A stretch of 64,000 nt of DNA, from contig JBAZRH010000001.1 of the NCBI GenBank assembly GCA_041663045.1, forward strand, positions 1,817-65,816, read 5' to 3'. Position 1 is the stretch's first letter, and each line of letters starts with the position of its first letter. The position numbers and the translations under genes are program-made. This document shows positions 3,140 to 31,587 of this stretch, piece by piece. Below the pieces are notes generated by a model that ran no database searches, was not told the origin of the DNA, and worked only from the letters and a program-made list of their open reading frames with translations. This DNA is from Minisyncoccota bacterium. GTDB taxonomy: Bacteria > Patescibacteriota > Minisyncoccia > Phycocordibacterales > GWA1-40-21.

Positions 3140-3161
3140 TTCCGAAAAGAGTGTAGGCAAC

Positions 3162-7881: not shown

Positions 7882-7914
7882 TTTTGTTTTTAAAAAATGG
7901 TATAATTTTATCAA

Positions 7915-10735: not shown

Positions 10736-10737
10736 AA

Positions 10738-11595: not shown

Positions 11596-12355
11596 CTCTC
11601 TTAAAGAAAAAGATTAGACTTTCATTGTCCCTTAAAAGTTTTTCCTGTTTATTGTTGTCTCTGCACATATAATAATCACCGCTTCCTTTAGTAAGAAGCC
11701 TATTCAAACCGCATCTATTGGCAATTAAATTTATTTCCCAATACGGGATTGGGTTAATATGATAATCAAAACAGTCAGGAGTGAACCATTTAAAATATCC
11801 TCTAAAGAAGAACATGAGTCTGCTTTGCAAGGAGACAATGTTGGGTGTTGTAATAATTAAAATACCATCATCTTTTAAGAGTTTTTTTGCCTCGCGAACC
11901 ATTTTCCATGGATTTTCAACATGCTCGATAATTTCTTGGCAAATAACTACGTCAAACGTTTTATTCGGAAATGGAATAGGTATTGTCTGATTTAAATCAA
12001 ATTTAATATTTTTACTATCCGATGTAGGCAGATCAATATCAAGATTATATACATCAAATCCTAGACTTTTATAAATAGATGAAACTTGGCCTGTTCCGCC
12101 ACCCATATTTAGAATTTTATTACCGCTTGTTTTTTTTGCCCTAAGAATGTCTGATAATTCTATTGAAATCGTTTCAATTACTCCAGGGGAGGCATGACAA
12201 TACAAGCAATCGACTAGACGTTTAATTCCAGAATAGACAAAACTTCTCTCATTGTGTGTAAAAGTCTCTTTCAACTTCTCAATTAATTCCGAATCATTTG
12301 GTTTAATGACTATTATATTAAGAAAACGTAAAATATTTTTTAATATCTTTTTCAT
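11582..12355 (-). CDS. class I SAM-dependent methyltransferase
   Basis: ILNMGGGTGQ motif I, acidic residue after beta2 (YNLDID), ITTPN. Confidence 0.65.
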   Translation of the reverse strand: MKKILKNILRFLNIIVIKPNDSELIEKLKETFTHNERSFVYSGIKRLVDCLYCHASPGVIETISIELSDILRAKKTSGNKILNMGGGTGQVSSIYKSLGFDVYNLDIDLPTSDSKNIKFDLNQTIPIPFPNKTFDVVICQEIIEHVENPWKMVREAKKLLKDDGILIITTPNIVSLQSRLMFFFRGYFKWFTPDCFDYHINPIPYWEINLIANRCGLNRLLTKGSGDYYMCRDNNKQEKLLRDNESLIFFFKRDDNN

Positions 12356-12382
12356 GATATGTAATATCTATTTTAGCACAAA

Positions 12383-13315: not shown

Positions 13316-13992
13316 TAGATTCTTATTAATTTATCATTAAATGAATCGTGCCATATTACATTTAAATATGGAACTTCTTTATACGAAAGTCTATTATTTA
13401 TAATAAACTTATATAAATCTCTCTCAATGCTGATTTTCATCATCAACATCCATTTTATAGATACATTATCAACATATTTTTTTAATTCAAGACTTTCTAT
13501 TGCTACTAACCCAGTCATAATTTGAACTAATCTAAAAGTAAATATTTTGTATTTTCTTACTAGGACTCTTTCAACTCTAAAGTAATTATTAGGGTCGCTA
13601 AGGAATCTTTCGAAAAAAATGAAATTCTCCAATTTCTGCCTTGGCTCAAAACTAATTATGTATTTATATCTTTCACCAATTACTGATAATATTTTTTGCC
13701 ACTGTATTATCAGTCCTGCACCTTTATTTTTTCTTCCCGCCTCATTATTTAGAAAAAAACAAGTCTTTAAATTTGGTATTTTGGATAAAACATTTTTGAT
13801 TTTATCATCGATTACGGAAGGATCTGCCAGTGTGCTATCTACCAAATAAAAATCAAAATCCATTGGGTGTTTCCTAGCTAAGACAATCATTTGCTCTAAG
13901 CCCCCAGCATATTGATCAATACGGTTTTTACTATCAGTGTTGCTGTTTGTTGTTGTAATAAACGCGGTTGGTAGAATTATAGCTGTTTTCAT
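13315..13992 (-). CDS. hypothetical protein in glycan locus
   Basis: Intact 225-aa ORF, 1-nt overlap with the upstream gene. Confidence 0.4.
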   Translation of the reverse strand: MKTAIILPTAFITTTNSNTDSKNRIDQYAGGLEQMIVLARKHPMDFDFYLVDSTLADPSVIDDKIKNVLSKIPNLKTCFFLNNEAGRKNKGAGLIIQWQKILSVIGERYKYIISFEPRQKLENFIFFERFLSDPNNYFRVERVLVRKYKIFTFRLVQIMTGLVAIESLELKKYVDNVSIKWMLMMKISIERDLYKFIINNRLSYKEVPYLNVIWHDSFNDKLIRI

Positions 13993-14955
13993 ATGATTCT
14001 TGTTAAGAAGATTATTTTGGTATATAATGAAAAAATGATTAAGAATAACCCTAAAATTTTAATAACTGGTGGTCTTGGCTTTATATTTTCGCATGTTACT
14101 GAGTACTTTGTCAATAAAGACTGGAACGTTGTTGTGATTGACAATGAGTCAGACGGTTCGCATCCAGAAATAATAAATGGGACATTTAAGTATTATAAAA
14201 TGGATGTCTCTGATCATAACATCATAAATATTATTTTAAAAGAAAGTCCCGAGTATGTTTTACATGCTGCAGCGATATCAGATGTAGATTTCTCTATTAA
14301 AAACTCTTTTAAAACCATGAGCAGTAATATATTGGGTAATTTACATGTGTTTGAAGCTAGTAAAAAACTCCCCAATTTAGTTAGGTTGTTGTATGTGTCT
14401 ACCGATGAGATATATGGAGAGTGTGGGCATAAAAAGAAAGAAACAGAAATAATCTTTCCGAAGAATCCGTATTCTTGTTCAAAGGCAGTTGGATCATTGT
14501 TAAGGATCGCCTATGACAACTCTTTTAAAGAACTTTTTGATAAAACCTCTGAAACCAGGTTTTGTAACGTTTTTGGGCCAAGACAGGATAAAAGAAAAAT
14601 ATTACCAGCAATAAAGGAAAGTTTAGATGGAAAATATTCTATACCATTGCATGATGGAGGGACAGGGTACAGAGAATATATTTATGTAAAAAATATACCA
14701 CCTGTAATTGATTTGATACTGAATTCAGATAAGGGAAACAGAGTATTCAATGTGACATTGAATAATGGTTATACCGTGCAAGAGTTGATAGAAAAAGCCG
14801 AGGAAATTACTGGTAAGAAATGCTTAACCCATCCAAGTCATAGGGAAGGCATGGACTTAAAATATCAAATGAATGCGACGAGGTTGAAGAGATTAGGTTG
14901 GAAACCACTTTATACATTTAAGCAAGGTTTAAAGGAATATTTATTAGATAAGTAA
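13993..14955 (+). CDS. NAD-dependent sugar epimerase/dehydratase (extended SDR)
   Basis: ILITGGLGFIFSH Rossmann motif, YVSTDEIYGE, YxxxK region. The true start may be the ATG at 14035. Confidence 0.75.
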   Translation: MILVKKIILVYNEKMIKNNPKILITGGLGFIFSHVTEYFVNKDWNVVVIDNESDGSHPEIINGTFKYYKMDVSDHNIINIILKESPEYVLHAAAISDVDFSIKNSFKTMSSNILGNLHVFEASKKLPNLVRLLYVSTDEIYGECGHKKKETEIIFPKNPYSCSKAVGSLLRIAYDNSFKELFDKTSETRFCNVFGPRQDKRKILPAIKESLDGKYSIPLHDGGTGYREYIYVKNIPPVIDLILNSDKGNRVFNVTLNNGYTVQELIEKAEEITGKKCLTHPSHREGMDLKYQMNATRLKRLGWKPLYTFKQGLKEYLLDK

Positions 14956-14968
14956 TAAATCATTAATT

Positions 14969-15991
14969 ATGAAAAAAGTAAAACTTTTTAAGCCGTTTGT
15001 TTCATGGAGAGCTATTGTAAACGTGGTGCGTGTTTTGCTCTCTGATCAGCTAGCGGAGGGTCCACAAGTAAAGAGATTCGAAAAGGAATTTTCCGAAAAA
15101 TTCGGACTTAAGAATGTTGTAGCTGTTAACTCCGGTACTACAGCGTTAGAGCTTGCTTACGAATTAGCTAAGATTGAGAAAGGGGACGAAGTAATTACAA
15201 CAGTATTTACATGCACAGCAACCAATATACCTCTCATTCGTCGCGGAGCGAAAATTGTCTTTGCTGATATAGACAAAGATTTAAACATTAATATTGAAGA
15301 CGTGAAAAATAAAGTTACTCCGAATACCAAAGCTATCGTATTTGTTCATTTCGGCGGGAACAATAGGGGACTTAAAGAATTAATAGAATTTTGTCGGGCT
15401 CGCTCAATAAAGTTAATCGAAGATGCAGCTCAAGCCGTTGGGAGTGATTTTTGGGGTAAAGCAGATTTCGCTTGTGTTTCTCTGCAGGCGATTAAAACAC
15501 TTTCTAGTGGTGATGGAGGGTTTCTTATTTGTAAGAGTGATGAAGATTATAAAAAAGCTCGCAGACTTAGATGGTTTGGTTATGATAGAGACGAGAAACA
15601 GAAAAAAGGTGATATAGATCTTACTGAAGCGGGATATAAATATCATATGAATGATATCACAGCAGCAATCGGTCTTGGGAACCTATCTGTTATTGATAAA
15701 GTTATTAATCACAGAAAAAAGCTTATGAATATTTATTCAGAAGCTGGGCTGAACAGTCATATCTGGATGACTGCTGTGCTTGGTCGTGATTACGCTTCTT
15801 TATCAAAGAGGCTTAAGGAACACGGTTTTGAGACGGGTCAACATCATTATCGTAATGATAAGTATACTCTTTTCGGAGGCAGACAAAAACTTCCAGTTAT
15901 GGATTCTATAGAAGATAATTATTTTTTTATTCCTATGCACCACGCTGTTTCAGTTAAGCAAGCGAAAAAGATAGTTTCTTTACTTCAATAA
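14969..15991 (+). CDS. DegT/DnrJ/EryC1/StrS-family PLP-dependent sugar aminotransferase
   Basis: VNSGTTALELA, GDEVITTVFTCTAT and lysine-region context typical of the family. Confidence 0.7.
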   Translation: MKKVKLFKPFVSWRAIVNVVRVLLSDQLAEGPQVKRFEKEFSEKFGLKNVVAVNSGTTALELAYELAKIEKGDEVITTVFTCTATNIPLIRRGAKIVFADIDKDLNINIEDVKNKVTPNTKAIVFVHFGGNNRGLKELIEFCRARSIKLIEDAAQAVGSDFWGKADFACVSLQAIKTLSSGDGGFLICKSDEDYKKARRLRWFGYDRDEKQKKGDIDLTEAGYKYHMNDITAAIGLGNLSVIDKVINHRKKLMNIYSEAGLNSHIWMTAVLGRDYASLSKRLKEHGFETGQHHYRNDKYTLFGGRQKLPVMDSIEDNYFFIPMHHAVSVKQAKKIVSLLQ

Positions 15992-16017
15992 TCTCTTAAT
16001 TATATATTATCTAAAAG

Positions 16018-17715
16018 ATGAAGACGGAAATCGAAAAAGAATATGGGGAACAAGAATATGTTCGCCATACAGCGCCATACAAAGCATATCTTCAAGCATT
16101 AGAAGCGGTATTTGATTGGACGATCGTCGATAGTTTTATAGACCTTGGTTGTAATAATGGCTGTTTGATCGAAGTTTTGCATAGAAAGTATCCACATATC
16201 GATATTTTAGGATTAGATTATTTTGAATGGGCGAAAAAGCACGCAGACGAATCCATTCGCGAAAATATTAAAAAGGCCGATTTGGGCTTACCATACAGTT
16301 TTGGAAAACAATATAGTATTGTTAATTGTTCAGAAGTTGGTGAGCACCTTCCGCCGAAGGTGGAGGACGTATTGATAGAAAATATAACCAAAGCGTCTAA
16401 AGATATAATTATATTGACATGGTCTAATGTTAAGATCAACTCTACCAGTAATAATCAACATGTTAATCCGCATTCCAGAAAATATGTAATATCGAAGCTT
16501 AAGCTTAAAGGATTTGGATATTGGGAGGAAGCTACAGATAAGATTATAAATATTTTAAGATTATCACTCGATGGAATTGGACATATGTGGTGGGCAGACA
16601 ATATTATGGTATTTAAGAAGATTGTCTTTTTCCCTATTAAGTCGCGATACTTTATTCAGGGTATTAATACAAATAATGAATCCCATAAGAAAGACTTGTC
16701 ACCAAACAGATTCTCTTCTTATGGAAGTAAGACATTGCAATTCGAATTAAAAGAGCTTACCGACAAGATCAGATATTGTGTTGCAAATAGAATAAAACTT
16801 AGTATTTTACGTGCAAGTGATGGTGATTATTTTTTCTTAAAAAAAATACCTATAGGAAGTGCTAGTCCTGGAAGAAGGGCGCTTACTATTGCTTATGAAG
16901 ATATAAATATAGACTTGTTTAGGTCTTCATTTTGGCATAATGATGTCATTACCTTTAATCTTGGACCAGGAACGATTACCTCATGGAGGAGTTTTATAAT
17001 GACAGAGTTACCCGTAAAGATTCTTGGTAAGATTTTTAAGAGGGGATTTCATTTATTAAATAATAAGAAGATAAGATACGGTTTAAATCTAATATCAAGA
17101 TATCTTACTTTTCTTAATATTCTACCTATAATCTCTGTCTGGCTGTATTCTTTCAAGAGGGGTTATGACTATTTTAGAAAAGCCTTCAGGCTTACCCTAG
17201 GCGATACTCCATCCTGCGAATCTGTCTATGCTCTCGTCACGACGAAATGGCTTTTTAATAATTTCAAAGATGAAATAGGTATAATTGCTGGTGACGAGAA
17301 ATTGGAGCTTATAAAAGAACTAGCTAGTAGAAAAGCGTATTGCGAATATATAGGAATAGAATCCTTTTGTGATTATATTCCTGTCCCGCAAAAAGGCGCG
17401 GCTAATAATGTAGAGGCATTGGCTAAGTCGATGTCTGAAAAGGTTAGTAAGAGTAAAGCAAAGATATTTTTAGTCGGAGCGGGAAGTAGTAAAGTCGCTC
17501 TTATCCCTCTTTTACAGACTTATAGTGATGCCGTCTTTATAGATGTCGGAGCCGGCATAGATGCTTTAGCCGGAATTGTGTGCCAAGATCGTCCTTATTT
17601 TGCAGATTGGATAAATTACCGCATAAAAGACAGAGATTATTCAAAGATCGATTTTATGGATAAGGGCAATCCAGCATGGAATAATCCTGTTTACAAAGTG
17701 GTGACCATATCTTGA
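16018..17715 (+). CDS. two-domain protein: N-terminal SAM-methyltransferase-like domain plus unknown C-terminal Rossmann-like domain
   Basis: FIDLGCNNGCLIEVL (motif I-like) at the N-terminus. C-terminal IFLVGAGSSK..DVGAG. Length 565 aa. Confidence 0.45.
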   Translation: MKTEIEKEYGEQEYVRHTAPYKAYLQALEAVFDWTIVDSFIDLGCNNGCLIEVLHRKYPHIDILGLDYFEWAKKHADESIRENIKKADLGLPYSFGKQYSIVNCSEVGEHLPPKVEDVLIENITKASKDIIILTWSNVKINSTSNNQHVNPHSRKYVISKLKLKGFGYWEEATDKIINILRLSLDGIGHMWWADNIMVFKKIVFFPIKSRYFIQGINTNNESHKKDLSPNRFSSYGSKTLQFELKELTDKIRYCVANRIKLSILRASDGDYFFLKKIPIGSASPGRRALTIAYEDINIDLFRSSFWHNDVITFNLGPGTITSWRSFIMTELPVKILGKIFKRGFHLLNNKKIRYGLNLISRYLTFLNILPIISVWLYSFKRGYDYFRKAFRLTLGDTPSCESVYALVTTKWLFNNFKDEIGIIAGDEKLELIKELASRKAYCEYIGIESFCDYIPVPQKGAANNVEALAKSMSEKVSKSKAKIFLVGAGSSKVALIPLLQTYSDAVFIDVGAGIDALAGIVCQDRPYFADWINYRIKDRDYSKIDFMDKGNPAWNNPVYKVVTIS

Positions 17716-17734
17716 TTTTATTGATAGATCTTTT

Positions 17735-18658
17735 TTAGTTTATTTTCTTTAGTATACAGATATGTAAATCTCCAACGAACCACCCCTTCTCAATTAAGAA
17801 ATCATCCATCTTTTGAACCACGTCTTTTATTATTCTTGGCGACTTACTCCAACTGTTTTGCAATCCCGGTAATGCAGCAAAGTTTCTGAAGTATAATATC
17901 TCTAAATCTTTTCTGTCATACAACTCTTTATAATCGTCTGCAGAAGATATAGATTCAAACGGGGAGGTATTGTGAGAATGAGCAACTGATTCTGCGAATT
18001 TCATACTGAATAAAATACATGGAATTCTATAGAATAGTATTTTTAATAATTCTTTGATATTTAATTTAAATATTGCATGAGGTAGTCTGTTTAGGATTGA
18101 ATATAGGAAGGCGTTTGTTTTTAATTGTATAGCTTGATGAACCCAGGTGTCATTGATTATAATAACCCCCTTTTCTTTTAGTAGATTATCAATACAGTAT
18201 CTTAAGGTATTAAGCGGATCTACCAAGTGGTGTAAGGTGCCTTGAGTGATTATACAATCAAATTTTTGATAGAATTTGATTCTGTCTATTTTATTCAAAT
18301 CTCCCCGTAATACTATGCTTTTATGGTTGTATCTTTTCTCTAAATTATCATTTAATGATATATCTATTGAGGTTATGTCTTTTACTCCACTTAGATTTAT
18401 AATTTCATTGGTTAACCAGCCATCAGCGCTTCCTAATTCCAAAACACTTATATTATTTCCACATTTCCTAATATATTCCAACATGAGTTCAGTCGTGCCT
18501 CTTCTATAAGTTTGGTAAGGGGCCGACTCTTTTCTCTCTTTAAAACCGCTTCCATCTTCTGAACCTTTATACCTACTCCAGATTTCTATCTCTTTTTTAA
18601 GTAAGTCATCATACTCCTTGGAGTTTACCGTCATCTTGTCTTTATTATATCTTTCCAT
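17735..18658 (-). CDS. class I SAM-dependent methyltransferase
   Basis: VLELGSADGWLT motif I, DCIITQGTLHHL, GVIIINDT. Confidence 0.65.
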   Translation of the reverse strand: MERYNKDKMTVNSKEYDDLLKKEIEIWSRYKGSEDGSGFKERKESAPYQTYRRGTTELMLEYIRKCGNNISVLELGSADGWLTNEIINLSGVKDITSIDISLNDNLEKRYNHKSIVLRGDLNKIDRIKFYQKFDCIITQGTLHHLVDPLNTLRYCIDNLLKEKGVIIINDTWVHQAIQLKTNAFLYSILNRLPHAIFKLNIKELLKILFYRIPCILFSMKFAESVAHSHNTSPFESISSADDYKELYDRKDLEILYFRNFAALPGLQNSWSKSPRIIKDVVQKMDDFLIEKGWFVGDLHICILKKIN

Positions 18659-19541
18659 ATTTTCTATTACTTAAAAATCCAGATTCTATTTTAATCCAAT
18701 CTACAGGAGTAATATCTGCTTCCTTGTGTTTATTATGCCAAACCTTCGGACAGACAACAGTCTTCCCTTGATTTTGATTAAGCCAAGCACCCCACCAACT
18801 AAATGAACTATTGGCAATAATGTTATTTCTGCTTTTCGACATTAATAACAAATCTATAAATGGTTTATTAATATTTGAATGAATCACAGTATATTTAAGG
18901 TCTTTTGGTAGTATTTTTTTTGCATAGTCTTCATCTTCACAAAATACAAAAAAGTTTGGACTCATTATTTTTTCTTTGATTATAGACACCGCTTTCGAGT
19001 AGTATTCACCATTACAGATATCTCTGACTTCAGGTATTTTTAAATAATCACCAGCTCTTACGTGAATTGAAACAGACTCCCCTAGAGACATCTTTTGCTC
19101 AATGGATAGGGAATAGTCATCAAGCGTTTCTTTTGGCTGGAATTCCTTTAAAAGTATATCTCTGATATCATCAAAATAATTGAGGTTTTGCCAGTAGCCG
19201 TCAAAATATAAACTTCTATTGATCTCGAAGACATTTTTCTCAAAAGCGAAAGATTTTACCTCTTGGATATAGTTATTAGAAAACCTCCAAACACCTTTAA
19301 AAATAGAAGCTATTTTCTTCAGTAATATATTTCTGGGAAATAGCGTATTAATGATCTCATCTTTTGTAGCAGTATCTATATTAGTCAGATAATTTATTAT
19401 CTCCAATTTTCTGTGATTTTGTTTATCGAAAAAACTTATATCAAACTTTAATTTTCGTCCAGTTTTAATGGAGACACTTTTACCGAAAGCATATTGGAAC
19501 ATTTGATTTCCCAAACCTCCAGAAAGTCTAACAATAATCAT
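18645..19541 (-). CDS. glycosyltransferase family 11 (alpha-1,2-fucosyltransferase-like), second copy
   Basis: SGGLGNQMFQYAFG signature. Paralogous to 10738-11595 (shared SSFSWWGAWLNQN). Confidence 0.75.
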   Translation of the reverse strand: MIIVRLSGGLGNQMFQYAFGKSVSIKTGRKLKFDISFFDKQNHRKLEIINYLTNIDTATKDEIINTLFPRNILLKKIASIFKGVWRFSNNYIQEVKSFAFEKNVFEINRSLYFDGYWQNLNYFDDIRDILLKEFQPKETLDDYSLSIEQKMSLGESVSIHVRAGDYLKIPEVRDICNGEYYSKAVSIIKEKIMSPNFFVFCEDEDYAKKILPKDLKYTVIHSNINKPFIDLLLMSKSRNNIIANSSFSWWGAWLNQNQGKTVVCPKVWHNKHKEADITPVDWIKIESGFLSNRKYGKI

Positions 19542-20421
19542 CTTTATATTTTCTTATCTGTTCTACCCAGTAATCCATCCGTAGCGCAGGACAGGCTGTC
19601 TTAGAAGATAGTTCAACGAAGATTTGTTCGAATTCCTTTTCTGTCACATCTTTTAATTTATCCCATTTTTCAATCACCATAAGCGGTATTCCGATACTTT
19701 TCCAATATTCAGTTGGTATAGAGGCTTCAACTATCGGTATAGATTTAAGATATATGGTTTCCCATGTTCTATGACAATCGAGCCCATTTCCTGGGGGTGA
19801 TATGATGAATTTATATTTTGATATCTTTTTTAAATAGTCTTCTTTTGAAATAGTCTCTTTTTCGATTTCTGATAAGGTATCAGCAAGATTTATTTTTTTT
19901 ACTTCCTCTAATATAGGTATTCTTTTTTTAAAGTTTGTCCTAACCCAGAAACTGTAAAACAGTCTGGTGATTTTGTTTTTTTCATCAGAATATTTTTTAA
20001 TAGAATTTATAATTATGTTTTTCTTATCGCCAATACGGCTATCGATTCCTATTGGTATCGGAGTTATCTTTTTGTGCTCAAACAATAAGTTTTCTGCAAA
20101 CCAGTGTATTACCTTGTTATCATCTGCCAGTGATTTCATCTCTTCACTTACACCCATATCTTCATTGTGGGAGATAAGTATGTACGGATTATCAATCAGG
20201 GGATTAATCTTTGATGAAAATTCTTTTAGGAAGTTTGTCCTTACAAAAATAATGTCACCCCTGCTTACATCTTTAGGGTCAAAGTCCATCGATTCATCGA
20301 AAATATGTTGCGCTAGATTACGAAAAGAATCTCCGGATATATATGGATAACTGGTTGGTCTTTGTGTTTTTAACGCTTTGTTTAAATATCTCCTTACTTT
20401 TGTTTTTAATTCTAATAGCAT
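19528..20421 (-). CDS. hypothetical protein in glycan locus (possible glycosyltransferase)
   Basis: Intact 297-aa ORF overlapping the neighbouring genes on both sides. Confidence 0.4.
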   Translation of the reverse strand: MLLELKTKVRRYLNKALKTQRPTSYPYISGDSFRNLAQHIFDESMDFDPKDVSRGDIIFVRTNFLKEFSSKINPLIDNPYILISHNEDMGVSEEMKSLADDNKVIHWFAENLLFEHKKITPIPIGIDSRIGDKKNIIINSIKKYSDEKNKITRLFYSFWVRTNFKKRIPILEEVKKINLADTLSEIEKETISKEDYLKKISKYKFIISPPGNGLDCHRTWETIYLKSIPIVEASIPTEYWKSIGIPLMVIEKWDKLKDVTEKEFEQIFVELSSKTACPALRMDYWVEQIRKYKDDYC

Positions 20422-21692
20422 AAGATTTTTTTAATTTTAGAAGTCGTAAAGATAAAAGCAAAAGGGATTGAATATGATATAAAAGTAGCGAATGCTGCTC
20501 CTGCCATACCATATTTTGGTATGAGGAATATATTTAGTATGACATTTATTGACATACCAAGAAAGGATGAGAAAAATAGAGTCTTTTTGTAATTTTCTGC
20601 CACAAGATAATAGTTGGCAAGCATATTTAAAGATGTGGAAATATTACTCCAAATATATATTTGAAGTATCAATACTGCTCCGATAAATGCCGGACCGAAG
20701 ATTATCTTTATTATTAATTCAGCTAGTAGTGTAGTCGGTATGGCAATTATTATAGAAAGAATTAATAATATCAGACCCAGCTTTTTAATTCTCCTATAAT
20801 AAATTTCTTCAGATATTTTCTTGGCATTTATAATCGCCGGAAACATCGAAGAGACTATTATATTTGGCACGAGATACCAGACTTCAGATAGTCTAACTGC
20901 GGCATCATATAGACCGACGGATTTTGCATCCATCATATTTTTTATCATAATCTGGTCAATTCTAGAATATATTAAAGCAAAGGCAGATGAAAAGATGAGT
21001 GGCCAAGAATCATGAAGTATTTTCTTTGCCACTTCTTTACTAAAGGACCACTCTGAAATCATTTTATAGAGTTTTGTTCGATAGTATAGAAGCCCGACAG
21101 CATAAAAGATTGATTCTAAAAGTAGAACAAATGCCAGATATATAACTCCTTTTCCAAAGACCAAAACTAATATCTTTAATATGTTCAGAATTATTGTTAC
21201 ATATAAAGATAGGAGTGAAGGATATTTTGATTGAACGTTTGCTTGAAATTCATTACTAATTATATTAAAAGAATTGAAAATGAAACTAATACTTAGTAAA
21301 AATATTAGAAATAAGGAGACATCTTTAGGAGAAAACCACAGAGCAAATGTCGAGCAGAGGATTATAGCTAGGATAGATGCTCCCAACCTAAGCCCCAAAG
21401 CTGAACCCATGTATAAATTCCTTTTTTCTGGATATTGAATTAAATCTCTGTATAGTACCTGATCGATTCCAAGGACGGCGATAAAAGAGAATATGGACAC
21501 AAAACTAACTGCATAGCTTAACTCTCCATAGTTTGTTGGACCCAAATGTCTTGCGATATAGATAGTGGCTAAAAGGGAGACAGCCATACTTCCTATTTTT
21601 GCTAGAAACATCCAGCTCATATTTTTGAAATATTTCTGAAATCCAACGTGTTTCCATTTCTCTACTATGTAATTCCAAGAAAGAGTCTGCAT
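20412..21692 (-). CDS. polysaccharide biosynthesis protein, Wzx-like flippase (MOP superfamily)
   Basis: ~12 predicted TM helices. N-terminal FLAKIGSMAVSLLATIYIARHLGPTNYGELS typical of Wzx/RfbX. Confidence 0.65.
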   Translation of the reverse strand: MQTLSWNYIVEKWKHVGFQKYFKNMSWMFLAKIGSMAVSLLATIYIARHLGPTNYGELSYAVSFVSIFSFIAVLGIDQVLYRDLIQYPEKRNLYMGSALGLRLGASILAIILCSTFALWFSPKDVSLFLIFLLSISFIFNSFNIISNEFQANVQSKYPSLLSLYVTIILNILKILVLVFGKGVIYLAFVLLLESIFYAVGLLYYRTKLYKMISEWSFSKEVAKKILHDSWPLIFSSAFALIYSRIDQIMIKNMMDAKSVGLYDAAVRLSEVWYLVPNIIVSSMFPAIINAKKISEEIYYRRIKKLGLILLILSIIIAIPTTLLAELIIKIIFGPAFIGAVLILQIYIWSNISTSLNMLANYYLVAENYKKTLFFSSFLGMSINVILNIFLIPKYGMAGAAFATFISYSIPFAFIFTTSKIKKILCY

Positions 21693-21887
21693 AAATTTGA
21701 TTAGGTAAATATTACCATTTTTGTGCTATAATGCCACTTGCGAAAATTTATTTTTTATTAATAATAAAAATACTTGTCCTGTTATAAAATACGGACAAAC
21801 GTTGGTAAGCTTAATGTGGCAGGTAATTTATTATAGTGTATCATTAGAATAGTAAAATAATTAATAGCTTTAAATTTTATAACTGGG

Positions 21888-24023
21888 ATGACAAATACGA
21901 ATATAAATAATATTGTTAAGTATGCGATTTTCACGGGCCTCTGGGCTGTGCTTTTGATACCATTTTATGTGGCGAATACAATGTTTTTTCCTTATATCGT
22001 TGGAAAAAACTTTGCTTTCAGAATAATCATTGAAATAATTTTCGCTCTCTGGGTATATCTTGCCTTTATTGACGTGAAATACAGACCGAAATGTTCAATA
22101 GTTTTGAGGACGACAATAATCTTTACAGCGATAATGTTTCTAGCAGATATTCTTGCCGTCGCGCCGGTAAAAGCTTTCTGGAGCAACTTTGAGAGAATGG
22201 ACGGATGGATTACTTTGATACATTTACTTATGTATCTATTAGTCTTTGGTTCTGTAATGAAAACAGAAAAGCTTTGGTTGTGGTTCTTCAGATCGTCTTT
22301 GGCTATGAGTGTTGTTATGATTTTGTTTGTTACAAAAGAATGGCTTTCAACTGGAGCAACTAGAGTCTCCGTAACTCTCGGCAATCCAATCTATGTTGCT
22401 ATTTTATTTCTCTTCAATTTTTTCTTTGCACTGATTCTGCTTTATAAAGACGTAATCATTTTAAAGACAAATAGTTTAAGACCATGGTTAGAGATTTTTA
22501 AATCCTGGCTGACATATGTATATCTTATAATTGCATTTCTCTGTGTTTTCGGTATCTGGAGAACAAGCACTAGGGGTGTAATACTCGGTCTCCTTGGGGG
22601 ACTCTTTGTTTCGGCTTTGATGATTGCGATCTTTGAGAAAAAAGACAAAATAATGAGGAAAGTTGCAATCGGAGGGGTTGTTGCCATTGTCGTCATTATT
22701 GTTGGATTCTTTGCTATTAAGAATACTGAATTTGTTAAAAATAATGCAACACTAAGTAGGCTTGCAGCGATTTCTTGGCAAAATGTAAACGGGCAAGGAC
22801 AAGCAAGACAATATGTCTGGCCAATGGCATTCCAGGGTGTAAAAGAAAAGCCCATTTTAGGTTGGGGACAAGACGGGTTTAATTATGTTTTTAACAAATA
22901 TTATGATCCTAGAATGTATGCCCAAGAACAATGGTTTGATAGGGCTCATAATATGCCGATTGACATACTCGTGGCTGGTGGAATACTTGGTCTTATCTCT
23001 TATCTCAGCATTTTTGTCGCAGCACTTTGGTTGATTTGGAAGAGGAGAGAAAGGCTTGGTATTACAGACGCAGCACTTCTGGTCGGAGTCTTGGCTGGGT
23101 ATTTTTTTCAAAATCTTTTCGTCTTTGATAATTTAATTAGTTATATCTTGTTTTTTGTAGTACTAGCGTATTTACATTCAAGTGATACAGAAAATGATAC
23201 AGAGAAAGATAATGGAAAAAACTACCATATTAATCAGGAATTAATAAACTATATTGTTGCTCCTTTGTTGGTGGTCATCCTCGGTGTTTCATTTTGGTAT
23301 CTAAATTATAAACCGATTTCTGCAAACTTAAATTTGATACGAGCATTACAACCTTTAGAAGGAGGGCTTTCTGTAAATCTAGATCTTTTTAAGAAAATCT
23401 TGTCCTCCGAATCAGTCGGTACACCTGAGATCAGAGAGCAACTCCTAAGTGTCGTTCCGAGAATTGTCTCCATAAACGTGGATCAGAAGATTAAGCAAGA
23501 TTTTGTTGAATTAGCATACAATGAAATACAAAAACAAGTGGCCGAAACTCCAAACGATGCAAGGTATCAATTCTTTGCAGGACAGTTTTTGGCGAATCTA
23601 GGACAGTATCAAGAATCTTTACAATATTTTCAAAAAGCAGTTGAACTTTCACCCACAAAGCTAACCATGTTATCTGATTTATCCAAGACATTGGCTTACG
23701 TTGGAGATAAAAAGCAAGCGCTAGAAGTAGCAAAGAGGGCTTATGATCTGATGCCAGAATATGTTGATGTGAAAATAGGTTATATTTTTGCTCTTATAAT
23801 AAATGGGGATGAAAAGGCGGCAAAAGATTTGTTGGGTGCTACAACCACAACAGATGAGAGGATAGTCAGGGCATATCTTATAAATGCCTCGGATTACCTA
23901 AGAAAAGGAGATAAATGGAGTGCTGTGGCGGAAGTAGAGAAGGCGATTAAGATATCCCCCAATTTTGAAGCACAGGGAAGGGGTGTGATAGATGGCATTT
24001 GGAAAGGGGAGATCAAGGAATAA
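21888..24023 (+). CDS. O-antigen ligase (Wzy_C)-like membrane protein with C-terminal TPR repeats
   Basis: Multi-TM N-terminal part with WFDRAHNMPIDILVAGGILGL (Wzy_C motif). TPR-like repeats after residue ~520. Confidence 0.65.
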   Translation: MTNTNINNIVKYAIFTGLWAVLLIPFYVANTMFFPYIVGKNFAFRIIIEIIFALWVYLAFIDVKYRPKCSIVLRTTIIFTAIMFLADILAVAPVKAFWSNFERMDGWITLIHLLMYLLVFGSVMKTEKLWLWFFRSSLAMSVVMILFVTKEWLSTGATRVSVTLGNPIYVAILFLFNFFFALILLYKDVIILKTNSLRPWLEIFKSWLTYVYLIIAFLCVFGIWRTSTRGVILGLLGGLFVSALMIAIFEKKDKIMRKVAIGGVVAIVVIIVGFFAIKNTEFVKNNATLSRLAAISWQNVNGQGQARQYVWPMAFQGVKEKPILGWGQDGFNYVFNKYYDPRMYAQEQWFDRAHNMPIDILVAGGILGLISYLSIFVAALWLIWKRRERLGITDAALLVGVLAGYFFQNLFVFDNLISYILFFVVLAYLHSSDTENDTEKDNGKNYHINQELINYIVAPLLVVILGVSFWYLNYKPISANLNLIRALQPLEGGLSVNLDLFKKILSSESVGTPEIREQLLSVVPRIVSINVDQKIKQDFVELAYNEIQKQVAETPNDARYQFFAGQFLANLGQYQESLQYFQKAVELSPTKLTMLSDLSKTLAYVGDKKQALEVAKRAYDLMPEYVDVKIGYIFALIINGDEKAAKDLLGATTTTDERIVRAYLINASDYLRKGDKWSAVAEVEKAIKISPNFEAQGRGVIDGIWKGEIKE

Positions 24024-24044
24024 AGTATAGGAGAAAGATTTTTA

Positions 24045-24086
24045 AAAAGCGGAACGGTGGCTATTTCTAGCCGTAGTTCCGCTTTT
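24045..24086 (+). terminator. rho-independent terminator
   Basis: aaaagcggaac...gttccgctttt (11-bp stem) with a T-run. Confidence 0.65.
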
Positions 24087-24220
24087 CCTTTTAAATTTGC
24101 TTTATTTCTTATAATATGCTATACTTCCCACTGTGAGTGCTAGCATCAGCGATGGCGCTGGCTCGAACGAATGTCTGCGTATGACCCCACTTTGTGGGGT
24201 TTTACGTTGTCCCAAAAAGC

Positions 24221-24340
24221 TCGCTCGGGCGTGCCTTTATGAGGGTACGGATTTTTTGAAGCTTAAAAAATCCTGAAGTTTTCGCGCCAGTCGCGCTCAA
24301 AACCCCCTCATAAAGGCACGCCCTCGCTCACCCACGAACG
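24221..24340. repeat. imperfect palindromic intergenic element R1 (family with 32563-32705 and 41186-41332)
   Basis: Outer arms gggcgtgcctttatgaggg / ccctcataaaggcacgccc (19/19). Central mini-palindrome ggattttttgaagcttaaaaaatcc. Shares the cgcgcc[ag]tcgcgctc core with R3. Confidence 0.6.
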
Positions 24341-24481
24341 AAATCAAGCTGGAATGAAAGGTGTGAGTTTGATATAATAACAGAGGATTGTTCCCAGTCA
24401 CGACCGGCGGTTGCACTCATATAAGACATTAGTTTTGGAGTTAGCCCCCGCCGGTCTTGAGTCGGAGCAATCTTTTTCCCC

Positions 24482-25506: not shown

Positions 25507-25534
25507 TTGACAGATATTTATTTTCGTGTATAAA
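25507..25534 (+). promoter_or_regulatory. sigma70-like promoter (TTGACA-16-TGtATAAA)
   Basis: -35 TTGACA at 25507, extended -10 TGTATAAA at 25527-34. Confidence 0.5.
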
Positions 25535-25612
25535 GATATACAGAAGTGAGGTCAAAAAGAGCTCATAAAAACCGTGGCAAAAGCCACACTGTTCTTAGAC
25601 AAGGAGAAAATA

Positions 25613-27022
25613 ATGCAAACGAATAATGCAGTTGAGAACGTTCGATGTATGAAAATTATCTTCAATGAAGGCAAGCCAGAAATCGACGGTGCCACACTGA
25701 AGGTTCAGTGGCTTTTCGGCAAAGAAACTGCCGAAAAAGTGCCGACGCATATTTTGGCAATGGATCTTAAGCCCTATGCCATCTTAAACATCAAGTCCGA
25801 TGGTTATGCATGGGATTCATATTCACCGAGAAAGGTCTTTAAGATCGCTGACACGATGGGCTTCTGGCAATTCAACCGTCCTGGAAAACACAAGATTTTA
25901 TTTGTGGCCTTGAGGGTGGAAGATTGCCAAAAAGAAGACTTCTCTTTGAAAGTCTTGTCATGCTCGGACGGCGGAAATTATGGTAACCCGCTGTTTGTGG
26001 ATGAGAAGAATGGCGAAATCGCAATTCGGCGAGTTCAAGAAAATCTCCCGGCAACAGTGATTTGTTGCCTTAATATGGAGATAGATATTCCAGAAGTGTT
26101 TTTTGCCAAGAAGCCGACATCGGCTATCGGTAAAGCTTTTTGGAATTATTCTGTTCCTCGTGAACGTGGTGGTGATCCAGATGATGAATGCGAATATAGG
26201 GGTTATTGGTTTAAGCGTCTTATACCCAAACTCGTATTCCATGTACCGACACGCATACTGATTGGGCTTTTCATCACAAGTCTTCTCACCTTGGTAAGGT
26301 TTAGTGCTTTCTTTTTTGGCTGGCGCCCATGTCTTTTGAGTGGACTCGGAGAACTCTGGAACTTCAATAGCAGAATCCTTGGCATAAAATTTGGTAAGGA
26401 TGACTTCAGGATTTTATTTCTGGAGGAGTGCGACCATGACAGACCTAGATGCAAGAGGTATATGGATTTACTTGAACGATACCGTGTCTGGAGTGTGAAG
26501 GAAAATCCAAAAGACGAAAGTGAAGTGGTCCTTGTAAAGATGCCTTTTGCCCCATGGCATTTGGCCGTCTTTGGTCTTATCGTGTGGGCATTTTGGGGTA
26601 GTAGCGATAAGATCGGGATTACAAATCTGTTGAAGATCAGTGTCTTTTGGAGTTCTCTGCTTGTTGGGTGGATACTGTTGATGGTTTTCTTTGCCCGTTT
26701 GGTCCCAGCACTTCTCGGCAAAGAGAGCAAGATCTATCCAAAATTATCCGAAAGGATGAAAGGGTATTGGTCTCGTCGGCGAGCTGAAAGGCAGAAAGCC
26801 CGCGCAGAAGCAGGACAAAAGCGGAAGGAAGCTGAAGCTATTGTTTCCATGAACAGGCATAAGCAGTATGCGTTGTGGTTGAAGAATAATCTATTGGTAG
26901 GTAAAACCTCGCCAGTGGGGAATTCTACATCAACGCCGTTCTCGAATAAGGGTGTTGTGAAGTTGAAAGCAAGCTTCTGGGCACTCAAGGCTCGTGTTTG
27001 CAAGCCGTATCCGAAGGGGTAA
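25613..27022 (+). CDS. hypothetical membrane protein on a moderately high-GC island
   Basis: AAGGAG RBS before the ATG at 25613 (the ORF track starts at a GTG at 25574). Soluble N-terminal half, ~5 TM segments, basic/coiled C-terminal tail. GC above the flanks. Confidence 0.55.
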   Translation: MQTNNAVENVRCMKIIFNEGKPEIDGATLKVQWLFGKETAEKVPTHILAMDLKPYAILNIKSDGYAWDSYSPRKVFKIADTMGFWQFNRPGKHKILFVALRVEDCQKEDFSLKVLSCSDGGNYGNPLFVDEKNGEIAIRRVQENLPATVICCLNMEIDIPEVFFAKKPTSAIGKAFWNYSVPRERGGDPDDECEYRGYWFKRLIPKLVFHVPTRILIGLFITSLLTLVRFSAFFFGWRPCLLSGLGELWNFNSRILGIKFGKDDFRILFLEECDHDRPRCKRYMDLLERYRVWSVKENPKDESEVVLVKMPFAPWHLAVFGLIVWAFWGSSDKIGITNLLKISVFWSSLLVGWILLMVFFARLVPALLGKESKIYPKLSERMKGYWSRRRAERQKARAEAGQKRKEAEAIVSMNRHKQYALWLKNNLLVGKTSPVGNSTSTPFSNKGVVKLKASFWALKARVCKPYPKG

Positions 27023-27035
27023 GGTTGTCGGTTCA

Positions 27036-27078
27036 GGGCTCCGCAGAGCGACATGTGTCGCCCGCGGAGCCCTTTTTC
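27036..27078 (+). terminator. rho-independent terminator
   Basis: gggctccgc...gcggagccc + TTTTT. Confidence 0.75.
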
Positions 27079-27113
27079 TTAGTTTTTTTTCTAAATTATG
27101 CTATTATGCATTC

Positions 27114-30940: not shown

Positions 30941-30978
30941 GGGCGATTTTCGGTATTACGAATAGTCCACTTTTTGCC

Positions 30979-31006
30979 TTGACACTCTTTTTTGTGGTGG
31001 TATTAT
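30979..31006 (+). promoter_or_regulatory. sigma70-like promoter (TTGACA-16-TATTAT)
   Basis: Near-consensus hexamers. AGGAG RBS 6 nt before the ATG at 31086. Confidence 0.55.
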
Positions 31007-31085
31007 GGACGCTTCCGTTTCTTTCTGTGTAGAAAGGGCGGGATTTGTTCTTTCGTAAGTAGTGGCCAAATAACAAGGAGATAGC

Positions 31086-31466
31086 ATGGCTACAGCAGTG
31101 CAAGAGAGTGAAGTGGAAGTGTTGCCGAAGTTTATAATGGATATCGATCCAGAAAAATTTCGGGGGCGCTTGGCGTTTGTGATGGCGTCTGGTCGGATTA
31201 ATGATTTTGGGATAGCCTCCCACGATACTGGTCAGACTTTGCACGTCGTCGTCCTCGATGCTGAAAGCAACGGTGGAACGATTCATCCGTCTGTGCGCGG
31301 ATGGCAACTCAAGGACCGTAATTCGTCTGCGGTGTGGGTGTTTAAACACCGACTCCGCCCTCTCACCACGAGGGAGAAAGTGGCTCTGAAAAACGTCCAT
31401 GAAAAACTGGAGCAAGGAATTGTCCCAGAAATTCATGAATTGCCCTCATGGCTACTCTCTCAATAA
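31086..31466 (+). CDS. hypothetical protein on a small high-GC island
   Basis: Intact 126-aa ORF with consensus promoter, strong RBS and downstream terminator. GC above the flanks. Confidence 0.55.
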   Translation: MATAVQESEVEVLPKFIMDIDPEKFRGRLAFVMASGRINDFGIASHDTGQTLHVVVLDAESNGGTIHPSVRGWQLKDRNSSAVWVFKHRLRPLTTREKVALKNVHEKLEQGIVPEIHELPSWLLSQ

Positions 31467-31500
31467 ACGTACACGAGAAATCATGTACAAACGCCCTGAC

Positions 31501-31537
31501 CATTTTCGTACGGTCAGGGCGTGTTTTAATATATTTT
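31501..31537 (+). terminator. rho-independent terminator
   Basis: cgccctgacc...ggtcagggcg + GTTTT. Confidence 0.7.
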
Positions 31538-31587
31538 TCTGTATTTTTCTCCCTTTTTATGTTAAAGTCATTAAATAATTTAAGCGT

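What the first reader, a model, noticed from the sequence alone, without database searches (positions are those of the whole stretch)
25560..27085. Second compositionally atypical single-gene island (membrane protein) between murB and secA
A 469-aa ORF sits between two core genes. GC is moderately higher than the flanks. It has its own TTGACA-16-TGtATAAA promoter, an AAGGAG RBS at 25613 and a strong GC-rich terminator. It encodes a soluble N-terminal domain, ~5 TM helices and a basic coiled tail (RRRAERQKARAEAGQKRKEAEAI). Together with islands 2175-3245 and 30945-31540, this makes three independently inserted one-gene cassettes, each with its own promoter and terminator and no mobility genes. 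That pattern suggests repeated acquisition of foreign genes into permissive intergenic sites.
Basis: partly seen in the sequence, partly recalled or inferred. Interest (0 to 1): 0.5.

Follow-up and report, generated by a model that had tools for sequence, protein, structure and literature searches.

The report
Acquired membrane-protein gene between murB and secA
A real, GC-rich, self-contained gene sits between two housekeeping genes of an ultra-small (Candidatus Paceibacterota) bacterium; it belongs to an uncharacterised, fast-evolving membrane-protein family, was most likely acquired horizontally, and its function is unknown.

Summary
A 469-codon ORF (25613-27022, +) lies between murB and secA, with a TTGACA-16-TATAAA promoter-like site, an AAGGAG ribosome-binding site and a -32 kcal/mol terminator. 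Its GC3 is 0.476, against 0.335 +/- 0.07 for window genes. No 470-codon stretch of the other 48 genes reaches that value.

It is not an orphan. A word-indexed search found only itself, but an exhaustive HMMER search found about 200 homologue clusters at 22-35% identity. They are full length and have no Pfam, NCBIfam, PADLOC, consistent PHROG or PDB sequence match.

AlphaFold2 with the family alignment (pLDDT 86) gives these parts:
- an N-terminal FN3/Ig-like beta-sandwich;
- three hydrophobic helices;
- a long basic helix;
- a conserved C-terminal motif, FW..K.K[VI]C[KR]P[YF].

Every homologue examined is a stand-alone gene with its own terminator, each in a different core-gene neighbourhood. 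One lies in a GC-rich block that ends at the 3' end of the tmRNA gene. Six relatives have murB next to secA without this gene.

Horizontal acquisition is therefore supported for this gene. The "three independent insertions" idea is not. Island 2231 is syntenic and equally GC-rich in a relative, and the site of island 31086 also holds a GC-rich ORF there. Function remains inferred only.

The parts
25507..25534 (+). Promoter-like site: TTGACA (25507-25512), 16-nt spacer, TATAAA (25529-25534). It starts 15 nt after the murB stop codon.
   Evidence: Read directly from the sequence. It is an 11/12 match to the consensus. The scan did not list it only because that scan requires T at hexamer position 6. 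Function not tested.
25574..25587 (+). Small GC hairpin (GTGGCAAAAGCCAC) in the predicted 5' leader. It also holds the alternative GTG start used in the JGI gene call.
   Evidence: Role unknown.
25601..25606 (+). Shine-Dalgarno sequence AAGGAG, 6 nt upstream of the ATG.
   Evidence: Homologues align from query residue about 12-13 and lack the GTG extension, which favours the ATG at 25613 as the start.
25613..27022 (+). Coding sequence, 469 aa. It is a member of an uncharacterised membrane-protein family found, where taxonomy is known, in Candidatus Paceibacterota.
   Evidence: The search found 200 homologue clusters with E<=1e-3 and 136 with E<=1e-10. The AlphaFold2 model has pLDDT 86.4.
25649..26092 (+). 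N-terminal soluble domain (aa 13-160): an FN3/Ig-like beta-sandwich with two inserted helices. Conserved residues are N18, G19, G20, A27, T28, P30, P44, R73, G91, H93 and P160.
26177..26200 (+). Juxtamembrane motif P-x-D-E-C-x-Y-R (aa 189-196). C193 is invariant; D191 and R196 are at least 90% conserved.
26234..26317 (+). Hydrophobic helix 1 (aa about 208-235), followed by the conserved F-x-G-x-R-P motif.
   Evidence: Hydropathy and AlphaFold2 helix 192-234.
26318..26542 (+). Variable loop (aa 236-310). This protein has an extra insertion of about 40 aa that most homologues lack. The loop ends with the conserved YR-x-W and MP-x-TP motifs.
   Evidence: Alignment occupancy falls to 0-0.4 across aa 258-288. 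AlphaFold2 pLDDT is 62-65 here.
26543..26716 (+). Hydrophobic helices 2 (aa 311-331, Trp-rich) and 3 (aa 336-368).
   Evidence: Whether helix 2 spans the membrane or lies at the interface is unresolved.
26741..26890 (+). Long, highly charged basic helix (aa 377-426), which includes RRRAERQKARAEAGQKRKEAEAI. Its sequence and length vary across the family.
   Evidence: AlphaFold2 helix 377-426 with pLDDT 82-94. K+R fraction is 0.23-0.32 across the family.
26948..27010 (+). Conserved C-terminal amphipathic helix and motif F-W-x-x-K-x-[KR]-[VI]-C-[KR]-P-[YF] (aa 446-466). W456, K459, C463 and P465 are at least 90% conserved.
27035..27090 (+). Intrinsic terminator: an imperfect 16-bp GC-rich stem-loop (27035-27073) followed by TTTTTCTTAGTTTTTTTT. 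The secA ATG follows at 27114.
   Evidence: RNAfold gives -32 kcal/mol. All ten family members examined have an equivalent terminator directly after the stop codon.

Best explanation
**What is shown.** The island is a genuine, monocistronic protein-coding gene. It belongs to an uncharacterised, fast-evolving family of stand-alone membrane proteins. Where taxonomy is known, the family is in Candidatus Paceibacterota (Patescibacteria/CPR).

**What is inferred about its origin.** The gene was most likely acquired horizontally, probably from another Patescibacterium with a higher GC content. It entered the murB-secA intergenic region, which in relatives is empty or holds only a tiny Lys-rich ORF. 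It has not yet drifted to the host's AT-rich codon usage.

**Protein architecture (predicted).**
- An N-terminal FN3/Ig-like beta-sandwich, inferred to be cytoplasmic.
- A membrane anchor of three hydrophobic helices around a variable loop that is probably external.
- A long basic helix.
- A conserved C-terminal amphipathic helix.

**Working mechanism (low confidence, about 0.2).**
- Both termini face the cytoplasm, with helix 2 lying at the membrane interface.
- The conserved polar residues H93, D191 and C193 come together with the C-terminal C463 to form a metal-binding or thiol-based site at the inner membrane face.
- The variable loop is exposed to the outside.
- This makes it a membrane-tethered sensor or adaptor of the accessory (envelope or conflict) gene pool, not a housekeeping enzyme.
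For: **Real gene.**
- A 469-codon open frame in 44.6% GC DNA.
- 200 homologue clusters with full-length alignments.
- A confident AlphaFold2 model once the family alignment is supplied: pLDDT 86.4 and pTM 0.73, against pLDDT 43.8 without it.

**Uncharacterised family.**
- No Pfam, NCBIfam or PADLOC match, and no consistent PHROG match, for the protein or for the 106 aligned members.
- No sequence relative in the PDB.
- Only generic FN3-type fold matches.

**Taxonomy.** The window genome and homologue P0035 are both named Candidatus Paceibacterota by NCBI.

**Stand-alone unit.**
- Ten different gene neighbourhoods: holB, recA, smpB/tmRNA, polA/tsaE, rpsI/prfA, gltX/murG, a VirD4-like gene and others.
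- Each member is followed by its own terminator.

**Acquisition.**
- GC3, codon usage and sliding-window tests all mark the gene as atypical.
- murB and secA are adjacent or nearly so, without this gene, in six relatives.
- The nearest homologue anywhere is 31-33% identical. Flanking proteins of a sampled close relative are 83-94% identical, and that relative's proteins are in the same database.
- In L087 the homologue lies at the end of a GC-rich block of seven genes (GC3 0.38-0.70, all but one above 0.5, against a core of about 0.44). The block is bounded by a tRNA-Ala gene and the 3' end of the tmRNA gene.
- In L083 the homologue lies next to a tRNA-Gln gene and has a GC3 z-score of +5.3.
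- A published survey reports that most individual gene transfers detected in Patescibacteria are between Patescibacteria (PMC12455944).

**Cytoplasmic N-terminal domain.** No signal peptide or N-terminal TM segment occurs in any member; N-terminal extensions are Lys-rich; and a K/R-rich YRKR motif precedes helix 1.
Against: - The murB-secA junction of the closest sampled relative (contig Ga0486075_000275, positions 12,466-23,597) could not be fetched. Absence there rests on the protein searches and on an interval that is 3.6 kb shorter.
- There are no integrase or transposase genes and no flanking repeats. No donor was identified.
- High GC3 is not a reliable sign of recent arrival in this lineage, because island 2231 has kept it across near-saturated synonymous divergence.
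- Family members are much GC-richer than their neighbours in 4 of 10 genomes and never much GC-poorer. This could mean that the GC excess is intrinsic to the gene.
- Topology is unresolved. If all three helices span the membrane and the N-terminus is inside, the very basic tail would be outside, against the positive-inside rule.
- Function is not supported by any conserved neighbour gene or any known homologue.
Confidence: 0.6

Rival explanations
1. The gene is native and vertically inherited. It is ancestral to this Paceibacterota lineage and was lost from relatives. Its GC-richness is a property kept by the gene itself, for example by selection on codons or mRNA, as appears to be the case for island 2231. 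It is not a trace of recent transfer.
For: - Orthologues of island 2231 keep GC at four-fold degenerate sites of 0.64 and 0.63 in both genomes. Flanking genes have 0.25-0.40, and third-base identity at these sites between the genomes is only about 0.4-0.5.
- The MYG1-obg slot holds a GC-rich ORF in both genomes.
- Family members tend to have higher GC3 than their neighbours. The z-scores are +5.6, +5.3, +3.5, +2.0, +1.1, +0.5, +0.4, -0.6 and -1.05.
Against: - No protein more than 33% identical exists in about 15 billion proteins, although the close relative's gene calls are in that collection.
- Six relatives lack the gene at this junction. Two of them share a different small ORF there, which suggests that was the ancestral state.
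- The ten homologues sit in ten unrelated neighbourhoods.
Confidence: 0.2
2. The gene is cargo left by a phage or an integrative/conjugative element, for example a superinfection-exclusion or abortive-infection membrane protein, or another anti-phage defence gene. The rest of the element has since been lost.
For: - It has the general look of conflict genes: patchy distribution, stand-alone, own promoter and terminator, fast-evolving, and compositionally atypical.
- One homologue lies at the end of a GC-rich block at the 3' end of the tmRNA gene.
- One homologue lies directly downstream of a VirD4/TraG-like coupling ATPase gene.
- There are weak hits of five members to PHROG 944 ('membrane protein') and of single members to SieB or SLATT-type models.
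Against: - tblastn found no match in 50,697 phage or 72,556 plasmid records.
- No relative was found on IMG/VR viral contigs, either with the protein or with a C-terminal motif pattern.
- No PADLOC model is hit by more than one of the 106 members.
- No integrase or phage gene is nearby, and there are no flanking repeats.
Confidence: 0.15
3. This is not a protein gene. It is either a GC-rich structured non-coding RNA, as is often seen in AT-rich genomes, or a chance ORF.
For: It is a GC-rich patch in an AT-rich genome. The word-indexed protein search found only the protein itself.
Against: - There is no Rfam hit anywhere in the island.
- A chance open frame of 469 codons at this composition has a probability of about 1e-12 (own estimate from base composition).
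- There are 200 protein-level homologue clusters with conserved motifs.
- The AlphaFold2 model is confident.
Confidence: 0.01

Closest known systems
Single-gene horizontally transferred 'islets' in Patescibacteria (individually transferred genes and genomic islands described in PMC12455944)
   Same: It is one gene with atypical GC and codon usage. It sits between core genes, is absent at that site in relatives, and has homologues in other Patescibacteria in unrelated contexts. One homologue lies in a block abutting the tmRNA gene.
   Different: There are no integrase genes, no att repeats and no identifiable donor. The nearest homologue is only 31-33% identical. The neighbouring GC-rich 'islets' in the same window turn out to be conserved in position, so GC-richness alone does not mark recent transfer here.
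CPR-enriched protein families of unknown function with transmembrane helices (Meheust et al. 2019, PMC6744442: 106 CPR-enriched families, 76 with at least one TM helix, most poorly annotated)
   Same: It is an unannotated membrane-protein family seen in CPR/Paceibacterota genomes, possibly tied to the envelope or to cell-cell interaction.
   Different: Those families are widespread in CPR. This one is sparse (about 200 clusters at 50% identity) and patchy. I could not check whether it is one of the published families.
FN3 / Ig-like beta-sandwich domains (for example NCAM2 FN3, PDB 2jll; PKD domain, PDB 4l9d)
   Different: Sequence identity is 5-12%, and no Pfam FN3, PKD or Big model matches. 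Known bacterial FN3/Ig domains are mostly extracellular, whereas this one has no signal sequence and is inferred to be cytoplasmic. It also carries conserved polar residues (H93, R73, D191, C193) that are not typical of FN3 spacer domains.
SoxY-type Ig-like carrier proteins with a C-terminal cysteine arm (PDB 2ox5, a weak Foldseek hit)
   Same: An Ig-like sandwich together with a conserved cysteine a few residues from the C-terminus.
   Different: The Foldseek E-value is only 0.04. The motif differs: VC[KR]P[YF] here, against GGCGG in SoxY (the SoxY motif is from my own knowledge). SoxY is periplasmic and soluble, and there are no sox genes nearby. This is a lead only.

Membership tests
Uncharacterised Paceibacterota membrane-protein family (alignment A1, defined here) | Full-length sequence homology to other members | tested here: met
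   The exhaustive phmmer search found 200 hits with E<=1e-3 and 136 with E<=1e-10, many aligning across residues 1-469. A profile HMM of A1 scores the window ORF at E=1.9e-94 and finds no paralogue in the window.
Uncharacterised Paceibacterota membrane-protein family (alignment A1, defined here) | Conserved motifs: NGG, PG-x-H, P-x-DEC-x-YR before helix 1, F-x-G-x-RP after it, and the C-terminal FW..K.K[VI]C[KR]P[YF] | tested here: met
   All are present in the window protein: N18-G20, G91/H93, P189-R196, G236-P239 and F455...C463-K-P-Y466.
Uncharacterised Paceibacterota membrane-protein family (alignment A1, defined here) | Stand-alone gene followed by its own intrinsic terminator | tested here: met
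   This holds in 10 of the 10 loci examined. No neighbour gene is conserved across contexts.
Horizontally acquired genomic islet | Composition and codon usage outside the host's range | tested here: met
   GC3 is 0.476 against 0.335 +/- 0.07. The codon-usage z-score is -2.07. None of 53 control windows reaches this GC3.
Horizontally acquired genomic islet | Absent from the syntenic site in related genomes | tested here: met
   In L002, L004, L005, L007, L011 and L082, murB and secA are 44-1,090 nt apart with no family member between them. The junction in the closest relative, Ga0486075_000275, could not be fetched. Absence there is inferred.
Horizontally acquired genomic islet | Mobility machinery or insertion scars (integrase, transposase, direct repeats, tRNA target) | tested here: not met
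   There are no flanking repeats beyond chance, no adjacent tRNA and no mobility gene. Homologues in L087 and L083 do lie next to a tmRNA or tRNA gene.
Horizontally acquired genomic islet | Identifiable donor lineage or a close xenologue | tested here: not met
   The best non-self hit is 31-33% identical.
FN3 / Ig-like beta-sandwich fold | Structural superposition with FN3/Ig domains | tested here: met
FN3 / Ig-like beta-sandwich fold | Match to a curated sequence model (Pfam fn3, PKD, Big_x) | tested here: not met
   No such Pfam hit for the protein or for the 106 members.
Known anti-phage defence system component | Match to a PADLOC model, or a location in a defence island | tested here: not met
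   The window protein has no hits. Four different models are each hit by a single member, at E>0.002. The neighbours are housekeeping genes.
Phage or plasmid gene | Homologues on phage, plasmid or viral contigs | tested here: not met
   Searches found none. PHROG hits are weak and inconsistent. The viral-contig test was limited to close relatives and one motif pattern.
Structured non-coding RNA (GC-rich island in an AT-rich genome) | Rfam match, or no coding signal | tested here: not met
   No Rfam family reaches its gathering score in the island. The coding evidence is strong.

The most novel reading that the evidence does not exclude
Paceibacterota genomes may contain fixed 'slots' between core genes (murD|murC, MYG1|obg, murB|secA). 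These slots would hold fast-evolving, stand-alone genes that stay much GC-richer than the host genome. The cause would be a gene-specific force, or repeated replacement from a shared gene pool taken up by transformation, and not one-off insertions. On this reading, the 469-aa family is one such roving gene. It would encode a new type of membrane-anchored cytoplasmic Cys/His/Asp module used in host-symbiont or phage conflict.
Probability: 0.15. Interest if true: 0.65.

Novelty: new variant of a known kind. Interest (0 to 1): 0.35.

Why it matters
- **A new structured family in microbial 'dark matter'.** The work turns an apparent orphan into a roughly 200-cluster, confidently modelled but entirely uncharacterised membrane-protein family in Patescibacteria. 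It has invariant Cys, His, Asp and Arg positions and a distinctive C-terminal motif that can be tested by mutagenesis.
- **A caution about method.** In this lineage, GC-rich single-gene 'islands' are not automatically recent insertions. One of them keeps its GC excess in the same position across near-saturated synonymous divergence. That observation is itself unexplained and bears on how horizontal transfer is called in reduced, AT-rich genomes.
- **A caution about search tools.** The word-indexed search reported 'no homologues', yet an exhaustive HMM scan found 200.

Tried and rejected
- **Curated family libraries.** Single-protein Pfam, NCBIfam and PADLOC scans found nothing, and PHROGs gave only one weak hit (phrog_726, E=0.0072). 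Scanning all 106 members gave only scattered chance hits in the TM region.
- **Word-indexed homologue search.** It found only the protein itself. With the family profile it found only two more members.
- **AlphaFold2 without an alignment.** pLDDT was 44 and the model was unusable.
- **PDB searches.** The sequence profile gave only spurious TM matches. Foldseek against the PDB and BFVD gave nothing below E=1e-3 apart from one low-TM-score podovirus protein. The afdb50 library was unavailable.
- **Mobile-element collections.** Viral, phage and plasmid searches were negative. The family alignment was too divergent for a viral-contig scan. A back-translated C-terminal motif gave two chance hits.
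- **Relatedness among the four GC-rich ORFs of the window.** None was found.
- **Insertion scars.** A search for flanking direct or inverted repeats found only chance-level matches.
- **The closest relative's murB-secA junction.** I tried to reach it through RpiB, but a retroelement-like insertion (bAvd, RVT_1, GIY-YIG) in that relative pushed the junction just outside the 10-kb flank.
- **Non-coding RNA hypothesis.** Rejected.
- **Sortase-like or papain-like catalytic readings of H93, C193 and R196.** Considered, but dropped because no fold search supports them.
Full report

Yes. The window holds an uninterrupted ORF from ATG 25613 to TAA 27022, 469 aa. An in-frame GTG at 25574 gives the 482-aa JGI gene call. 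The upstream gene is MurB (FAD_binding_4 plus MurB_C). The downstream gene is SecA, whose true ATG is at 27114.

Expression signals, read from the sequence:
- TTGACA at 25507-25512, a 16-nt spacer, then TATAAA at 25529-25534. This starts 15 nt after the murB stop.
- AAGGAG at 25601-25606.
- After the stop, an imperfect 16-bp GC-rich hairpin (27035-27073) with a long T-run, -32 kcal/mol.

Composition:
- GC is 0.446 and GC3 is 0.476. The 52 long ORFs of the window average GC3 0.335 +/- 0.070.
- The synonymous-codon likelihood is third lowest (z = -2.07).
- None of 53 sliding 470-codon windows taken from the other 48 genes reaches this GC3; the maximum is 0.438.
- GC3 is raised along the whole gene except for residues 151-200.

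The four ORFs with the most atypical codon usage are this one, 2231-3139, 31086-31466 and 57034-57843. None has a Pfam, NCBIfam or PADLOC match and only this one has even a weak PHROG hit. They are unrelated to one another.

**2. What is the gene?**

It is a protein gene, not an RNA and not a chance ORF. Rfam finds nothing in the island.

The word-indexed search of 5.8 billion protein clusters returned only the protein itself, so it looked like an orphan. The exhaustive HMMER scan of 1.84 billion representatives changed that. It found 200 homologue clusters at E<=1e-3 and 136 at E<=1e-10. They are 22-35% identical, 400-550 aa long, and many align from end to end.

An alignment of 106 members (A1) shows these conserved positions:
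- Invariant: R73, P160 and C193.
- At least 90% conserved: N18, G19, G20, A27, T28, P30, P44, G91, H93, F164, A165, P189, D191, R196, G236, W456, K459, C463 and P465.

These fall into four motifs:
- NGG and PG-x-H in the N-terminal domain.
- P-x-DEC-x-YR[KR]R just before the first hydrophobic helix.
- F-x-G-x-RP just after that helix.
- F-W-x-x-K-x-[KR]-[VI]-C-[KR]-P-[YF], three to six residues from the C-terminus.

No curated library covers the family. Pfam, PADLOC and PHROGs scans of all 106 members gave only scattered chance hits to the TM region, and NCBIfam found nothing for the window protein. A PDB sequence-profile search likewise gave only spurious TM matches.

**3. Predicted structure.**

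Without an alignment, AlphaFold2 fails (pLDDT 44). With A1 it is confident (pLDDT 86.4, pTM 0.73). The model has these parts:
- A beta-sandwich with two inserted helices (residues about 13-160).
- A 43-residue helix (192-234) whose C-terminal part is hydrophobic.
- A poorly conserved loop (236-310). This protein has about 40 extra residues here.
- Two further hydrophobic helices (314-331 and 336-368).
- A final amphipathic helix (446-462) carrying the conserved C-terminal motif.

There are therefore three hydrophobic helices, not about five.

None of the 106 members has a signal peptide or an N-terminal TM segment. Their N-terminal extensions are Lys-rich, and a K/R-rich segment precedes helix 1. 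I therefore infer that the sandwich domain is cytoplasmic.

The tail after helix 3 is also very basic. That clashes with a simple three-span topology. One way to reconcile this, which I have not tested, is that the Trp-rich helix 2 lies at the membrane interface. Both termini would then be cytoplasmic, and C193 and C463 could come together with H93 and D191.

**4. Genomic context and origin.**

Source:
- The window comes from JGI contig Ga0376277_0000148 (428,695 bp).
- NCBI names the genome a Candidatus Paceibacterota MAG, with locus tags beginning WC631_.

Relatives found through SecA and MurB:
- murB lies directly upstream of secA in L002 (SecA 78% identical), L004, L005, L007, L011 and L082.
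- The gaps between the two genes are 44-1,090 nt, with no family member present.
- In L002 and L082 the gap holds only a tiny Lys-rich ORF (MAKKKAKKVAKKGKKK-like) with its own terminator.

A closer relative:
- Contig Ga0486075_000275 has SecA 83%, Obg 94%, RpiB 96% and MurC 85% identical.
- Its murB-secA junction fell between the two stretches I could fetch.
- The matching interval is 3.6 kb shorter than in the window. That fits absence of the gene but does not prove it.
- The gene calls of that contig are in the protein collections searched. Even so, no protein more than 33% identical to the 469-aa product exists there.

Homologues elsewhere:
- They sit in ten unrelated neighbourhoods: next to holB, recA/ftsK, an RHH gene, polA/tsaE, rpsI/prfA, gltX/murG, a VirD4-like ATPase gene and others.
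- Each is followed by an intrinsic terminator.
- In L087 the homologue (GC3 0.645 against a core of about 0.44) ends a GC-rich block of small hypothetical genes. The block is bounded by a tRNA-Ala gene and the 3' end of the tmRNA gene, which is a classic island integration site.
- In L083 the homologue lies next to a tRNA-Gln gene and is also GC-rich for its host.
- In five other genomes its composition is native (z between -1.05 and +1.1), and in L090 it is GC-rich (z = +3.5).

No relatives were found in phage, plasmid or viral-contig collections. The window island has no flanking repeats.

The best reading is a stand-alone accessory gene that moves between Patescibacteria and arrived here after the split from the sampled relatives. 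This agrees with a published survey reporting that most individual gene transfers detected in Patescibacteria are between Patescibacteria (PMC12455944).

**5. The wider 'three islands' claim does not hold as stated.**

Island 2231-3139 lies between murD and murC.
- It has a 62-64% identical orthologue in the same slot of the relative.
- That orthologue is just as GC-rich: GC 0.523 and GC3 0.609, against 0.23-0.36 for its neighbours.
- At four-fold degenerate sites under identical amino acids, third-base identity between the two genomes is only 0.38-0.65, so these sites are largely saturated.
- The orthologue pair still keeps GC at those sites of 0.64 and 0.63. Nearly all other genes compared have 0.25-0.41.
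- The GC excess is therefore being maintained. It is not the leftover of a recent insertion.

Island 31086 lies between the MYG1 gene and obg.
- These two genes are adjacent in L005 and L006.
- In the close relative the slot holds a different 146-aa GC-rich ORF (GC 0.51). It resembles the window ORF only marginally, at the C-terminus (pairwise E=0.014).

These observations weaken GC content as stand-alone evidence. They keep alive the rival view that the 469-aa gene's GC excess is intrinsic to the gene.

**6. Mechanism, with confidence levels.**

Shown:
- It is a real gene.
- It belongs to a new, uncharacterised family.
- It is a stand-alone transcription unit.
- It is lineage-specific at this site.
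- Its composition is atypical.

Inferred at moderate confidence (about 0.6): horizontal acquisition.

Inferred at low confidence (about 0.2):
- The protein is a membrane-tethered protein with a cytoplasmic FN3-like domain.
- The conserved residues H93, D191, C193 and R196, together with the C-terminal Cys helix, form a metal or thiol site at the inner face of the membrane.
- The variable loop faces outward.
- It acts as an accessory sensor or adaptor in envelope or conflict biology.

No conserved neighbour gene, known homologue or specific fold match supports any particular biochemical activity.

**7. Comparison with what is known, and novelty.**

The phenomenon, a single-gene transferred islet, is known. 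CPR genomes are already known to hold many unannotated membrane-protein families (PMC6744442). The family itself has no curated model or characterised relative in any library searched.

The architecture is unusual. It combines a cytoplasmic FN3-like domain, a TM anchor, a basic helix and a conserved C-terminal Cys motif. I therefore rate it a new variant of a known kind, of modest interest (0.35).

The more surprising by-product is the GC-rich genes that keep both their position and their GC excess.

Noticed in passing
window 2231-3139 (+); L098 10001-10906: A 302-aa GC-rich ORF (GC 0.53, GC3 0.60) lies between murD and murC. It has a 62-64% identical orthologue in the same slot of a relative. 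That orthologue is equally GC-rich (GC at four-fold degenerate sites is 0.64 and 0.63, against 0.25-0.40 in the flanks), although synonymous sites between the genomes are near saturation. What maintains the GC excess is unexplained.
   Followed up: partly
window 31086-31466 (+); L100 3284-3724: The slot between the MYG1 gene and obg holds a GC-rich small ORF in both the window (126 aa) and the close relative (146 aa, GC 0.51). The two ORFs share only marginal similarity at the C-terminus (E=0.014). The slot is empty in L005 and L006. The window copy has the best promoter-like match in the region (TTGACA-16-TATTAT at 30979).
   Followed up: partly
L002 1724-1774; L082 2022-2083: Relatives carry a tiny Lys-rich ORF (MAKKKAKKVAKKGKKK and MAKKKVAKKAKKVAKKKGKK) with its own strong terminator between murB and secA, preceded by conserved upstream sequence. 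No such ORF was found in the window. The alternative GTG start of the window gene (GTGGCAAAAGCC) resembles its first codons and could be a remnant.
   Followed up: partly
L100 5171-8501: The close relative has a cassette resembling a diversity-generating retroelement between obg and gatB. It consists of a 314-aa GC-rich ORF, a bAvd-like gene, a GIY-YIG gene and an RVT_1 reverse transcriptase gene. The window has only a His_Phos_1 gene there.
   Followed up: no
window 57034-57843 (-): A fourth GC-rich ORF (269 aa, GC3 0.50) has no family match. It has an N-terminal hydrophobic, signal-like segment and ends in ...FFLGYSHYFK. It lies near two PKD-domain proteins (52267-53808 and 54746-56632).
   Followed up: no
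window 9977-21692: A low-GC block (0.28-0.33) of glycosyltransferase, methyltransferase and polysaccharide-synthesis genes, followed by a Wzy-type O-antigen ligase-TPR protein at 21888-24023. It is a compositional outlier in the opposite direction and differs in part from the relative's cluster.
   Followed up: no
window 6679-9837; L091 6503-11230: A DUF4015/DUF8128-like gene plus a VirD4/TraG-like coupling ATPase gene form a pair that is conserved in relatives (82-83% identical in L098; the ATPase is 64% identical in L091). In L091 a member of the 469-aa family lies directly downstream of this pair.
   Followed up: no
L088 5892-5965 (-): ARAGORN calls a tRNA with anticodon TTA, which would read the UAA stop codon, in a genome that carries a family member. 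It could be a suppressor tRNA or a miscall.
   Followed up: no
window 24024-24481: A 458-nt gap with no gene call lies between the O-antigen ligase-TPR gene and murB. It contains a terminator-like hairpin at 24230-24249. There is no Rfam hit.
   Followed up: no
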